A DNA stretch of 64,000 bases from the human T2T-CHM13v2.0 reference genome, Homo sapiens. The notes below the pieces were generated by a model. It did not search any database. It was not told where the DNA came from and saw only the letters and a list, made by a program, of their open reading frames with translations. This document shows positions 34,601-40,600 of the stretch, piece by piece. Numbering within the stretch: the first letter of the stretch is position 1; each line of letters opens with the position of its first letter. A program made the translations under genes and the position numbers. The stretch lies in assembly GCF_009914755.1 (NCBI RefSeq), contig NC_060925.1. One strand, written 5' to 3'.

Positions 34601-37600
34601 CTGGCTAACACGGTGAAACCCCGTATCTACTAAAAATACAAAAATTAGATGGGCATGGTGGCGGGCACCTGTAGTCCCAGCTACTTGGGGGGCTGAGGCA
34701 GGAGAATGGCGTGAACCCGGGAGGTGGAGCTTGCAGTGAGCCGAGATTGTGCCACTGCACTCCAGCCTGGGTGACAGAGCAAGACTCTGTCTCAAAAAAA
34801 AAAAAAAAAAAAAAAAAGTCAAAGCTCTTGTACAGCCTGCTAAGCTATAAGCCAGTGTCTGCCCACCTCTCCAACCTCCTTCCCGCCACCACCCAGCACA
34901 ATGTCACAATGTCTGTCCAGGCCCAGCCCCTCAGATACTCTTTTTTTTTTTTTTTAAGCAATGGAGTCTTGCTATGATGTCCAGGCTAGAGTGCAGTGGC
35001 TATTCACAGGCATGATCATAGCTCACTGCAGCCTCCAACTCCTGGGCTAAAATCATCCTCCTGCTTCAGCCTCCCAGGTAGGTGGACTCCAGGCATACGT
35101 CACCACTCCCAGCCACCCTTCTTTCTGTCCCTGGAGTGTGCCCCAGGCCTCTGCACTGGCCGAGCTCCTCTGCCATGCCAGTCCTAGCAGGGCTGGTTCA
35201 GTTCCCAATTCAAATGTCACCCCATGGAGGTGCCTCCCCGAGGACCCATCTAAAACACCTCTGCCCCCAGTCCCTCTTCATCCCCCCAACCCTGCTTCGG
35301 GTTCCTCCTATCACCATGATCCGGCAACAGCCTATGAGGCCGCGTTCTGATGGACCTGCGGCCGTGAGGCGGGGACCTATGCGCAGGGCACCTCTGTGCT
35401 CCAGAGCCGGGCGCGGGGCTGGGCGTGCACAAAGTGCTCGCTGGGTATATGTCAAAGGAGGGCCCCAGAGAATGCCCAGGTCCCCCTGACACCCTGCTGT
35501 GGCACAGTCAAGGCTCCTGTGCTGTCCCGGGCCCAGGCAGGGGAGGGGAAGGACGGTTCACCACTCCCAAGCCCCCAAGCCCCACGTGCCCTGAGCCCCA
35601 ACCTGTTCTTGGTCGTGGGCATCTCTGGGGAGCTCTGAGTGGATGAGTTCTCCGACTTGGGCTCCTGTGAGACGTGCCCGCTGTCTGGGGTCTTCTGACC
35701 AGCCGGAGGGCTCTCCCTGCGGGGCACACGGGGGCAGCGGGGGGATTCAGCACCAGGCCTGGCATCAGGCGTAGCGTGAGGCCCAGGCGGTGAGGGGAGT
35801 CACGGTGCCTCCTGCCTCATACCCACGCCCCTATACTCAGGGCCAGCCCTGGAGCAGTCTTGTGGGCTCCCTGGCTAGCCTGGCCAGTGATGGGGTTGGC
35901 ACTGATGGGGCTATATGGGACAGGATGGGACTCCTCCCAGGTCCTCTCCACAGGAGCAGGTATAGCTGTCCCATTATGGATAAGGAACCTGCCCAGGGAC
36001 GCACAGCTAGGACGTGGCAGTGCCAAGACCTGAACCCAGGACTCACAGCATGCGGAGCTCTGGCAGCAGCAAGGACAATGCCCACTCCCGTCCTGGAGCC
36101 CTCTCAGGGGACCTGGCCCTGGCCTCACACGCAGTGCCCTGAGTCCCCACAGCAGCCCCATGCCATGGGTTGTGTTCTTGTCCCTTTTCCAGGTTGGGAC
36201 AGTAAGGCTCAGAGGAGGTCAGTGACTCGCCCAAGGTCACACATGGTTAATATCGGGGAGGCAGCCGGGAGCTAGCCTCTGATGTCCGGGGGCAGCCCTG
36301 CTGCTGGCCTGGGCTCACTGCCCTCATGCTGCCCACACTCATGGACCCCCCAGGCCCATCTGTGGCCACCCTGAAAACCAGCACTAGGCCCTCCCACATG
36401 CGCTGGGGCCGTGGGAAGAGCACGGATGCTGGCCCTAGACAGATCAGGGCTCAGATCCTAGCTCTGCCCATCACTGGCTGTGTGATCTGGGCAAGCCCCT
36501 TGACTCCTCTGACCTACCGCTTCTTGATCTGCATGTGGCACGTTAGGTGACGTGCTGGCCCTGGTGCCCGACACGCAGCAGGGACTTGACCACACAGCTG
36601 TCACTAGTGGGGATGGAGAGGCAGAGGGGCGGGCACTCCCTTCTGCCTGCCTTGCTTTGCCACCGAATGGGGCTCAGGGATGGGGGTGCAGGGGAATGGG
36701 GCACTGTCCCCCACTCACCCACCTCTTCTCCTGCACCTCCTGTATGTTCTCGATGCCAATGGCGCTGCTGCGGCGGGAGCCGAACGGGCCCGACTTCTTC
36801 CTCGTGGGGCTCTTCCCAGGGACAATCAGTGACTGTGGGGAGAGGCCCCAACTCAGTGCCACCTTACCTGGGAGCCCCAGTGCCCCCCCACATCCCCTCT
36901 GGGGATCCTGCTGCCCCAGGCCCTGAAGCAGAGTTGATGAGCAAGAAAGAACGAGAGAAGATATCCATTCCCAGAGACAGCCTCCCAGTTTACGAAAGGG
37001 AAACAGTCCCCAGGAGGGCAAGGGGCTCTCCCGAGCTCACACGGCAGGACTGCACGTCAATACTGGCCCAGGATTAGGACAGCATCCTGAGGGGGCTAGG
37101 GTGGGAGGAGGCCGAGTCCTCAGAATGGCTACCGCTCCCCGCCCCCCAGGGCTCTGTGGGATCTGCAGCCTAAGGGCAGTGGTCAGAGGGCAGTGTAGCA
37201 ACCCAAGTCCCACCCCGTGCCAGCTAGGGCCCCTCCCCGGAACCTCCAAATTGGCTGGGGGAGGTTCTGGCCCAGCAGCTGGAAGACTCCCCCAGCTTCC
37301 CACACACTGTGCTGGGATGCCCCAGGCCCCAGAAGCCCGCCCCCAGCTTCTCTGGAGGCAGGAAGGGGTAGGACCCCAGGTCACTTCGTGGCGGGGAGGA
37401 GGAGTCAGGGCAGAGGAGAGGGATGGCGCTCCATGCAGACCGGCGATATTGGGGGACGTGCGGCTGGGTGTAGGGCCTTTGGGTACCGGATCCTGGCAGG
37501 GACTGGGCCAGGGTCCCAGGGGCCAAGGCAGGGCCAGAAGCCCCTGGTGAGGGGCACTGGCTCTGGCACAGGTACCAGGCCCCAAAGCAGGTGCTGAGTG

Positions 37601-40600
37601 CCATCGGAGCTGCCGCCACTCCATCCCGCACGCCCTGGGGCCTGTCCCGGGGGCAGAGGGGCAACGTCCCCAATATGGCCTCCGTCCTGAGAGCGAGCAG
37701 AGAACAGCGCGTGCAGGCAGCCTCCAGAGCCGGCGGCCCCGCGGACGACAACCTCTTCCACGGTTCCTATGCCTATGGCACTGCCCCGGCGTCCGAATCT
37801 ACTCGCACTTTTCCCAGGAATAAGCAATGACTGGCAAGCAGCAGAGGGCGGGGGCAGAGAGAGAGAGACAGAGAGAGAGTCAGAGAGCAAGAGAGATGGT
37901 GGGAGGGAGACACAGAGAGGAGGAGAGGCAGGGAAAGGAGGAAGACAGACAGAAAAAGGAAGAGAATGGTGCAGGAGGCAATGGGAGAGATAGGGCCGGG
38001 GAAAGGAAGGCGAGAAGCACAAGGAGAGACAGAGGACAAGGGAGACGGGGGAGAGATGGACAGACAGTTACCCGGAGACAGGGACACGCGTGAGCCAGCG
38101 AGGGCACACCAGATGGGCACAGAGGGAAATCCAGAGAGACAGGGACGCAAGGACACAGACACAGGCCCAGGGAGGGTCAGAGACAGAGAAGGAAGCCAGG
38201 GGAAGGCCGAAAGGAAAAAGCGAGGGTGAGAAGAGCGGAGAAGGGAAGGAGGAGAGGGAGCAAAAAAGACAGGTGCAAGAAGGAAGGAGAAACAGAGAGC
38301 CAAAGGGCAGAGAGGCCACAGGACGGGGAAAGGGAAGGGAGGAGGGAACAAAAAAACAAGGAGAGAGAGTAGAATGAAAGGAGGAAACACAGAGAGAGGG
38401 AGAGTTGTGCAAAAACAAAACAGAAATGGGTCCGGTTACTGCCATGGTGGGTGCTGCTGGCCTGGTCCTGTCCCTGGGGCCCCTCTCGGCCACCCACAGG
38501 AGGCTGGGTCACTCTGGTGGAGAGGAAGGGAGTGGTTGATAAAACTGGGTTGGGGGAGGTTGGGCCTGCTCCTCGCATGACAGTGTGCTTGGTGACTGCT
38601 GGACAGCAGAGGTCGGGGAATTCCCTCCTGCCACGTGACATAGCCTCACAGCACTGAGCGCAGGGCTTGGCATGCAGTAGACAGTCAATAAAGGATGGAT
38701 GGATGGATGGATCGGTGGGTGGGTGGATGGATGGATGGAGATAGAGGGATGGATAGAGATGGATGGATGGATGGATGGATGGATGGATGGATGGATGGAT
38801 GGGTGGATGGGTGGGTGGATGGATGGATTGATGGGTGGATGGGTGGGTGGATGGGTGGGTGGATGGATGAGTGGGTGGGTGGGTGGATGGGTAGATGGGT
38901 AGGTGGGTGGATGGGTGGGTGGGTGGATAGCTAGATGGGTGGATGGGTGGGTGGATGGATGGATGGGTGGGTGGATGGATGGGTGGCTGGATGGATGGGT
39001 GGGGAGCACAGCAGTGGGTGCAGTGTCCTGGGGTGGCCACTAGGCAGTGGACAGCAGTGAGGCCCACAGCCATAGGCCGTATTCATCCATGTGCCCAGCA
39101 CTCCTGAGTGTGAGCAGCAGAATCCCAGAACCTGGACAACAGTCAGTGATCACACAGGAGGTGCTCCCTCTGGAGATGCTCACACAGAAGCCAGATTCCC
39201 GACACACAATAGGCAGCCACACCACAGAGGCCCTGGCTGCTGCGGACACACAGTAGGAGGTGCTCACAGAGAAAGTACCCACACAACAGCTCACTTCCTG
39301 ACACACAGTAGGTGTTCACTGACATCTAGGGCTTATCACACACGATGTGCTCACATAGCAGTCCATTTTCTGACACACAGTAGGTTCTCACACAGCAGCC
39401 CAGGGCTGCGCACACAGTAGGCGCTCACAGAGTTGATGCCCACACAGCAGCCCAGGACCTGACACACAGTGGGTGCTCACAGGTACTCAGGGCCAGGCCC
39501 ACAGTAGATGCTCACAGAGTGCATGTCCACACAGCAGCCCAGGGCCTGACACACAGTGGGTGCCCACAGCCCGACACACAGTAGGTGCTCCCAGAAACCC
39601 AAGGCTTGACAGTAGGTGCCCACACAGCAGCCCAGTCCCCAGCAAACAGATAGATACTCAATAAGGAATGAGACACAGAGGCTGTCCCAGGGCTGACCTG
39701 CAGGAAGTCACACCTCAATGCATAAAGGGCCAGGAGGAGGGGAGGGCCAAGGAGCTTGGGAAGGGGCTGCAGGCTGCAAGCTGTCAGCACCGCAGTGTCC
39801 TGGCCTGGGCACTTCACCCCCCTCCCATGGAAAGTAGTGGCTAGACCAAATCCAGAGCCTAGGATGGGCATGTGGGCAGCAGGGCAACAGAGAGAGTTGG
39901 AGTCAGGCCTCAGGAGGCAGAGGAGAGCTGAGGGCCCCCCAGGGAGGGGCAGGGGCCTGGGGAGGGGGAGGGCACTCACTATTCCAGCCGCCTTGGCCAG
40001 GTCGGGGTTGTTGGGCGCGAAGCTCCCGCTGTGGCTGGTGGACACGGTGTTGGGCTTCTTGTTGCTCAGCCCCATGGCATCCATGGACTGGCTGCGGCTC
40101 CGGATGACCCGCTGTGAAGGGGGTGGCAGTGGAGGAGGCACAGGATTCCTAAGGGCCGTCCCCTTGGGGAAACCCAGGAGCCCAGGCATCTGGTCTCTCC
40201 CCAGCAATGCCACTCTGGGTAAGCCCTGGAAATCCCTTCCCCTGGGCATGTGGCCAGCAGGGCAACAGAGGGAGGTGGGGCCAGGCCTCAATTTCCCTGT
40301 GCGTCACATGAGAAGCAGGTACATACGGGGCCTAAGGGTAGCTCAGGTATTGGCTCTGCCACCAACTTGCCGGGTGGCCTTGGGGACACCACTTCAGTTC
40401 TCTCACTCTCTGGGACACACAGGCTGCTCTGTGCTGAGTGTCCTCATGTGGCTGCGTAAGGACTGCAGAAGACACTGGGTCATGGCCAAAAGTGTGCACA
40501 GAGAGCCCTCTTGACACCTCAGTTTCATTCCTGTTAGGGCCTCTTAGAGCTCTCCTGCCTTCTTTCTTTTCTTCCCTCCCACCCTCTTTCCTTGTTTTTT

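What the first reader, a model, noticed from the sequence alone, without database searches (positions are those of the whole stretch)
36723..37830. The cassette exon is a diverged tandem duplicate of the next exon and adds a second PKA-type site
Seen: the cassette [27 protein letters not shown] aligns with the constitutive [33 protein letters not shown]. Both begin cag|TCA(T/C)TG. The cassette donor GAG|GT falls at the Glu-Val codons that are internal in the constitutive copy, which makes the cassette phase 0-0. Established: S499 (RRSS) is a PKA site and S484 (KSP) a CDK1-type site of Rap1GAP. Inference: the duplicate keeps the RRxS PKA consensus (RRGS) but loses S-P and RKKS, so inclusion would add a kinase input. 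The phases differ (0-0 versus 0-2), so the two exons are additive rather than mutually exclusive. The exon itself is probably annotated; its duplicate origin may be overlooked.
Basis: partly seen in the sequence, partly recalled or inferred. Interest (0 to 1): 0.7.

Follow-up and report, generated by a model that had tools for sequence, protein, structure and literature searches.

The report
Ancient duplicated kinase-site exon in RAP1GAP
An optional 78-base exon of the human RAP1GAP gene is a partial copy of the next exon, kept from lampreys to humans, and including it likely gives this signalling protein an extra protein kinase A site; the exon and its likeness to its neighbour are already catalogued, but the extra site is untested.

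Summary
The 78-nt cassette (37753-37830, phase 0-0) and the 110-nt constitutive exon (36723-36832, phase 0-2) share 17 of 26 aligned residues; 0 of 200,000 shuffles reach the score. Swapping them shifts the frame, so they are additive.

Both units occur in lamprey, hagfish, sharks, coelacanth, teleosts, reptiles and mammals. The cassette's K/R-x-G-R-R-G-S motif is invariant in 120 of 120 listed proteins (a set biased towards two-unit proteins). Human RAP1GAP2 has one phase 0-2 exon here, and frame logic makes the cassette the derived copy.

S-P was kept after the duplication (113 of 120) and changed only in amniotes. The origin is not overlooked: Zea et al. 2021 Table S8 lists a RAP1GAP 37/26-aa similar-exon pair, and the exon is a published NOVA2 target in mouse and zebrafish.

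Phosphorylation of the new serine (S493) is not shown. Neither phosphoproteome I checked held the peptide, and every RAP1GAP row I saw mapped to the cassette-less protein. An extra inhibitory PKA input is likely but untested. Modest interest.

The parts
37753..37830 (-). 78-nt alternative cassette exon of RAP1GAP, phase 0-0, 26 aa; derived partial copy of the next exon; weak donor GAG|GTTGTC
   Evidence: RefSeq annotation; (donor matches 4 of 9 consensus positions, lowest of 22 donors); mouse ortholog MmuEX0038750 with 132/78/110-nt exons
37780..37782 (-). Codon of the cassette serine in RRGS (S493 of the inclusion isoform), predicted PKA site, 32 residues before S525 (= S499)
   Evidence: motif invariant in 120 of 120 listed proteins; phosphorylation not shown
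36723..36832 (-). 110-nt constitutive exon, phase 0-2, aa 477-513; parent copy carrying S484 (KSP), S490 (RKKS) and S499 (RRSS)
   Evidence: human RAP1GAP2 has a single 119-nt phase 0-2 exon at the same place
36764..36766 (-). Codon of S499, the published PKA site
   Evidence: PMC4201484 passage; singly phosphorylated peptide covering S498/S499 in mouse brain and human iPSC-neuron tables
37833..38439 (-). About 608-nt AG-free, pyrimidine-rich zone upstream of the cassette acceptor; candidate distant branch point or splicing-repressor tract
   Evidence: first upstream AG at -610, versus -9 to -81 for the other 24 acceptors; 513 of 20,000 base shuffles are also AG-free, so A-poor composition explains much of it
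37576..37752 (-). 177-nt extension to an alternative downstream donor (255-nt annotated exon); conserved in mammals but read in another frame in lemurs and some unnamed records
38693..39002 (-). Tetranucleotide repeat (GGAT on +, about 77 copies) giving 66 YCAY motifs on the pre-mRNA, 860-1170 nt upstream of the cassette; role untested
39980..40111 (-). Upstream 132-nt phase 0-0 exon carrying PKA site S441; skipped in some cassette-containing vertebrate protein models

Best explanation
The 78-nt exon is a partial tandem duplicate of the next RAP1GAP exon, shared by jawless and jawed vertebrates, and its inclusion adds a second copy of the R-R-x-S-A-I-G-I unit that is likely phosphorylated by PKA and would deepen cAMP-driven inhibition of Rap1GAP. 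Shown here: (1) homology to the next exon; (2) polarity, since the flanking exons end in phase 0 and start in phase 2, so the single ancestral exon was the 0-2 one and the copy gained a phase-0 donor at an internal GAG|GT; (3) presence in lamprey and hagfish; (4) in-frame, additive inclusion in the tail after the GAP domain. Published: NOVA2 controls the exon in mouse endothelium and zebrafish; PKA phosphorylation at S441/S499 inhibits Rap1GAP and activates Rap1. Inferred: a deletion of about 6 codons left a basic residue at P-6 and Gly at P-4 of the new serine, probably a good PKA context (preference recalled from the PKI inhibitor peptide, not checked by a call); splicing therefore likely sets the number of inhibitory phosphosites and the gain of the cAMP-to-Rap1 link.
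For: Score 66, 0 of 200,000 shuffles. Two units in 120 of 120 listed proteins from Petromyzon, Lethenteron, Lampetra, Myxine, sharks, rays, Latimeria, Amia, teleosts, reptiles, monotremes and a mole. Cassette P-6 is K/R, P-4 G, P-3/P-2 RR, P0 S in 120 of 120; the parent has F at P-6 in 120 of 120. Human versus lamprey identity is 20 of 26 for the cassette and 26 of 35 for the parent. RAP1GAP2 has one unit in 120 of 120 listed proteins and one phase 0-2 exon in human. The RAP1GAP2 unit scores higher against the parent (31-41) than against the cassette (14-25) in 20 of 20 comparisons. Mouse 132/78/110-nt event and zebrafish exon 18 are NOVA2 targets. PKA at S441/S499 inhibits Rap1GAP; Ser563 phosphorylation lowers its activity, and 563 = 499 + the 64-aa N-terminal extension.
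Against: No phosphopeptide of the cassette was found: 0 hits in two phosphoproteome supplements that did hold the parent peptide. The RAP1GAP rows I saw map to canonical A2ALS5/P47736, so the searches were probably blind to the cassette, and one file was cut when stored. The non-kinase parts of the cassette (LLxPG, AIGIGT) are as invariant as RRGS, which fits a binding motif equally well. P+1 is Ala rather than a large hydrophobic residue. The 120-protein set is the top of 2336 hits to a two-unit lamprey query and holds many isoforms of the same species, so it overstates invariance; unnamed P0124/P0130 have a 23-aa cassette. RAP1GAP2 lacks RRxSAIG altogether (0 of 120). I could not read the direction of NOVA2 control, and YCAY motifs are sparse just downstream of the human exon (1 in 200 nt).
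Confidence: 0.6

Rival explanations
1. The duplicated unit is mainly a protein-binding linear motif, and inclusion raises avidity for a partner (for example a 14-3-3 dimer bridging two phosphoserines 32 residues apart) or changes localisation, rather than directly strengthening GAP inhibition.
For: Hydrophobic flanks are invariant along with RRxS. KANPHOS Table 2 lists Rap1gap S213 and S245, 32 apart, from 14-3-3-enriched striatal samples; S493/S525 is the only such pair where both serines are RRxS.
Against: S213 is listed under the MAPK motif, its numbering fits neither full isoform, and the peptides were not in the supplement. Three serine pairs 32 apart with an RxxS second site also exist in the skipping isoform. 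No partner is shown.
Confidence: 0.25
2. The cassette serine is used by another basophilic kinase or is poorly phosphorylated; the insert acts as a 26-aa spacer, or in fishes as an extra CDK-type S-P-x-K site.
For: 113 of 120 cassettes keep K-S-P-x-K/R; no direct PKA data for the site; P+1 is Ala.
Against: S-P is absent from all 117 cassettes matched among the 120 proteins of the mammal-dominated set, while RRGS is kept in all 117. Near-invariant sequence across vertebrates is not expected of a spacer.
Confidence: 0.12
3. The similarity is chance or convergence of two basic, low-complexity motifs, or the two exons are mutually exclusive alternatives.
For: No intronic similarity remains; third codon positions are only 12 of 26 identical.
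Against: 0 of 200,000 shuffles; shared acceptor position, and the cassette donor coincides with an internal GAG|GT. Similarity is as high or higher in shark (73), coelacanth (69) and hagfish (68), though lower in lamprey (60). Swapping the exons shifts the frame, and annotated proteins carry both units in series.
Confidence: 0.03

Closest known systems
'REL' similar s-exon pairs of ThorAxe (Zea et al. [quoted passage not shown]
   Same: Table S8 has the row RAP1GAP, anchor 37 aa, alternative 26 aa, class REL, not in the Abascal set; the sizes match this pair.
   Different: The row gives no coordinates, age, polarity or function.
NOVA-regulated Rap1gap cassette exon (mouse MmuEX0038750; zebrafish exon 18; Giampietro et al. 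2015, PMC4633719)
   Same: The same exon: 78 nt between 132- and 110-nt exons; splicing altered by Nova2 loss in mouse endothelial cells and zebrafish.
   Different: The passages and supplements I read do not mention the duplicate origin or test the protein isoform.
Tandem duplicated exon substitutions / mutually exclusive homologous exons (PMC8373072, PMC9741552)
   Same: Ancient tandem exon duplication with alternative splicing.
   Different: This pair adds rather than substitutes (phases 0-0 versus 0-2). RAP1GAP has 0 main-text mentions in those two papers (search listing; their supplements were not searched).
Exons with long AG-exclusion zones and distant branch points (Gooding et al. 2006, PMC1431707)
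   Same: The zone of about 608 nt is far above the 150-nt cut-off (165 cases among 67,334 introns) and precedes a cassette exon.
   Different: The branch point is not mapped, a near candidate (CTGAC at -53) exists, and RAP1 is not named in the main text.

Membership tests
Tandem exon duplicate (partial) | Significant sequence homology between adjacent exons | tested here: met
   score 66, 0 of 200,000 shuffles; best of 190 exon pairs
Tandem exon duplicate (partial) | Homologous splice-site position | tested here: met
   Same acceptor register; donor coincides with the internal GAG|GT of the parent
Tandem exon duplicate (partial) | Residual similarity of flanking introns | tested here: not met
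   175 and 24 of 300 shuffles as high; expected for a duplication of this age
Tandem exon duplicate (partial) | Single copy in a paralog or outgroup | tested here: met
   RAP1GAP2: one unit in 120 of 120 proteins, one 0-2 exon and no second copy in 8.8 kb of the human locus. Whether RAP1GAP2 never had the copy or lost it is unresolved
Mutually exclusive homologous exons | Same phases, so that one exon can replace the other | tested here: not met
   0-0 versus 0-2; the swap shifts the frame; proteins carry both units
PKA substrate site | R-R-x-S consensus | tested here: met
   RRGS in 120 of 120 listed proteins
PKA substrate site | Phosphorylation observed in cells | tested here: inconclusive
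   Peptide absent from 2 of 2 phosphoproteome supplements whose RAP1GAP rows map to the cassette-less protein; KANPHOS S213/S245 pair ambiguous
PKA substrate site | PKA dependence and functional effect | not testable with these tools
   Needs kinase and Rap1-GTP assays
NOVA-regulated cassette exon | Inclusion changes with NOVA level | not testable with these tools
   Published for mouse and zebrafish; no human data seen
NOVA-regulated cassette exon | YCAY cluster near the exon | tested here: inconclusive
   Human: 1 YCAY in the 200 nt downstream, 4 in the 200 nt upstream, 66 in a repeat about 1 kb upstream
Long AG-exclusion-zone exon | AG-free zone of 150 nt or more before the acceptor | tested here: met
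   First upstream AG at -610
Long AG-exclusion-zone exon | Distant branch point used | not testable with these tools
   Needs lariat data or minigene mutagenesis; candidates at -53, -264, -350, -400, -548

The most novel reading that the evidence does not exclude
A vertebrate-wide exon duplication built a splicing dial on a kinase input. NOVA-controlled inclusion adds a PKA site 32 residues before the known inhibitory S499, making a two-phosphate (possibly 14-3-3-bridged) switch that changes how strongly dopamine/cAMP turns Rap1 on in neurons and endothelium. Optional skipping of the S441 exon would give isoforms with different site counts, and work on the canonical cassette-less protein would have missed this.
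Probability: 0.3. Interest if true: 0.55.

Novelty: already known. Interest (0 to 1): 0.3.

Why it matters
Rap1GAP phosphorylation by PKA is a readout and effector of dopamine and adenosine signalling in striatal neurons, and the exon is one of the NOVA2 targets proposed for vascular lumen formation. If the conserved cassette serine is a working PKA site, splicing sets the number of inhibitory sites. That would give a NOVA target exon a molecular function and expose a phosphosite that canonical-database proteomics cannot see. It is cheaply testable by re-searching existing spectra. The exon, its NOVA control and its likeness to the neighbour are already on record, so the advance is incremental.

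Tried and rejected
Mutually exclusive use: rejected by phase and frameshift. Recent or mammal-specific duplication: rejected. Loss of S-P at the time of duplication: rejected.

Dating against the RAP1GAP/RAP1GAP2 split: a first tree grouped cyclostome proteins with RAP1GAP at 89/90, but four rows were under half filled, at least three through a trimming error. The corrected tree (22 rows; RAP1GAP2 crocodile dropped for lack of the anchor motif, fewer taxa) leaves cyclostomes, RAP1GAP and RAP1GAP2 unresolved, so I claim no order.

The 255-nt extended exon as a conserved coding domain: doubted, because lemur and other records read the same stretch in another frame.

Pfam has no family for either unit and the PDB search gave 0 matches for the cassette. 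A full-text search for the peptide strings found 0 papers, as did Rap1GAP with '26 amino acid'; none of the 25 listed papers held all of tandem, duplicated exon and RAP1GAP. The ASPRING preprint does not name RAP1GAP in its main text; its supplements were not seen. McAvoy 2009 is not held, so its results are cited second-hand. The TDP-43 cryptic exon of RAP1GAP is described among frameshifting events, so it is not this in-frame annotated exon; I did not locate it. No structure or complex prediction was run.
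Full report
Observation. Their local alignment scores 66 with 17 of 26 identities. None of 200,000 shuffles reaches this score, and the next best of 190 RAP1GAP exon pairs scores 30. DNA identity over the aligned codons is 54 of 78 and falls to 12 of 26 at third positions. The flanking introns share nothing above chance. 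This is the pattern of an old duplication kept by protein-level selection.

Phases and polarity. The cassette is phase 0-0 and its neighbour 0-2. Inclusion gives a 689-aa open frame, and substitution shifts the frame into premature stops, so the exons are additive. The upstream exon ends in phase 0 and the downstream exon starts in phase 2, so a single ancestral exon had to be 0-2. The cassette is therefore the derived copy (inference), ending at a GAG|GT that is internal in the parent. Human RAP1GAP2 agrees: a 138-nt 0-0 exon is followed by a single 119-nt 0-2 exon, and no second copy was found in 8.8 kb. The RAP1GAP2 unit occurs once in 120 of 120 listed proteins and resembles the parent more than the cassette in 20 of 20 comparisons, though weakly (4 to 148 of 5,000 shuffles as high).

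Age and conservation. A search with a lamprey two-unit region returned 2336 proteins. All 120 listed carry both units, from three lamprey genera, hagfish, sharks, rays, coelacanth, bowfin, teleosts, reptiles, monotremes and a mole. The list is ranked by likeness to a two-unit query and holds many isoforms per species, so it shows breadth rather than frequency. Human and lamprey cassettes are 20 of 26 identical, and the parent exons 26 of 35. The duplication is thus at least as old as the common ancestor of jawless and jawed vertebrates. Whether it came before or after the RAP1GAP/RAP1GAP2 split is open: a mis-trimmed first tree put cyclostomes with RAP1GAP, but the corrected GAP-domain tree is unresolved.

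Motif content. The cassette keeps RRGS in 120 of 120, with K or R at P-6 and G at P-4 in all; the parent has F at P-6 in all. That a basic P-6 favours PKA binding is my recall of the PKI peptide, and no call confirmed it (PDB search empty). Only the 7 amniote rows differ, and none of 117 matched cassettes in the mammal-dominated set has S-P. The duplicate first carried both a CDK-type and a PKA-type site, and the CDK-type site was lost later. The RKKS segment (S490; a PKA site by my recall only) is deleted in all cassettes. Both units lie after the Pfam Rap_GAP domain (residues 211-390), in a tail with no family match.

What is in print. PMC4201484 (passages) states that PKA phosphorylates S441 and S499, inhibiting Rap1GAP, and that CDK1 phosphorylates S484 without affecting GAP activity. 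PMC9570387 and PMC8750479 (passages) give the site as Ser563, which equals S499 in the 64-aa longer form. The primary paper was not held. PMC4633719 (section 6, passages, supplementary files 1 and 4) shows the orthologous mouse event (132/78/110 nt, MmuEX0038750) and a zebrafish exon 18 as NOVA2-dependent. The direction of the effect is in figures I could not see, and the table row carries mostly 'N' flags, which I read as low coverage. PMC8327911 (passages, Table S8 header and row; its supplementary file 1 was not searched) lists RAP1GAP with a 37-aa anchor and a 26-aa inserted similar s-exon. I match this row to the pair by size and event type. PMC7561204 (passages and supplements) mentions a fish-conserved RAP1GAP event with peptide support but does not say which. 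Searches for a duplicated phosphosite in print found nothing. The library lacks most subscription papers and does not index supplements.

Phosphorylation evidence. Two phosphoproteome supplements hold the parent phosphopeptide (mouse brain, 16 of 16 samples; human iPSC neurons) and not the cassette peptide. The rows I saw map to the cassette-less canonical proteins, so this is weak evidence against. The mouse table also holds the skipping-junction peptide, so skipping occurs in brain. KANPHOS lists Rap1gap S213 and S245, 32 apart like S493/S525, from 14-3-3-enriched samples. However, S213 is classed under the MAPK motif, the peptides were not available, and other serine pairs fit the spacing. 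This is a lead only.

Splicing anatomy. The cassette has the weakest donor of 22 (4 of 9 consensus matches). Its acceptor is preceded by about 608 AG-free, pyrimidine-rich bases, against 9 to 81 for the other 24 acceptors. A-poor composition explains much of this (513 of 20,000 shuffles are AG-free), but the arrangement is the one PMC1431707 (passages) links to distant branch points and regulated exons. A repeat with 66 YCAY motifs lies about 1 kb upstream. An alternative donor makes a 255-nt exon that is read in another frame in lemurs, which suggests conservation at the RNA level.

Verdict. This is a real, ancient, additive partial exon duplicate. The exon, its NOVA control and its likeness to the neighbour are already recorded. 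An extra inhibitory PKA input is the most likely function (0.6) but is inferred, not shown. Interest 0.3.

Noticed in passing
window 37833-38439 (- strand): About 608-nt AG-free polypyrimidine zone before the cassette acceptor, the longest AG-free stretch in the 34 kb of RAP1GAP in the window; 86 TCTT/CTCT/TCTC motifs. Candidate distant branch point or PTBP1 tract.
   Followed up: partly
window 38693-39002: Tetranucleotide repeat of about 77 copies that gives 66 YCAY (NOVA-type) motifs on the pre-mRNA upstream of a NOVA-regulated exon; length polymorphism could affect inclusion, untested.
   Followed up: partly
window 37576-37752 (- strand): Extension to an alternative donor; 72-100% identical over the 85-aa query in named mammal records but read in another frame in Propithecus, Microcebus and some unnamed records, suggesting a conserved RNA element rather than a coding domain.
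   Followed up: partly
window 39980-40111 (- strand); proteins P0124, P0130, P0244, P0277, P0350, P0352: In six protein models (hagfish, two Mobula, three unnamed) the cassette follows the GAP-domain end directly, skipping the exon that carries PKA site S441, so site number may be set by two cassettes.
   Followed up: no
window 39370-39588: Degenerate tandem repeats (periods 25-87) rich in TG on the sense strand, in the intron upstream of the cassette; a TDP-43 cryptic exon is reported in RAP1GAP, but I did not check whether it lies here.
   Followed up: no
proteins P0124, P0130 (unnamed): Shorter 23-aa cassette that still keeps RRGS and a basic P-6.
   Followed up: no
L005, G000:C17:2908450-2908568: The RAP1GAP2 exon at the same position keeps S-P-x-K-R-R-S-G but lacks the RRxSAIG half (0 of 120 proteins); its S558 phosphopeptide appears in human iPSC neurons.
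   Followed up: partly
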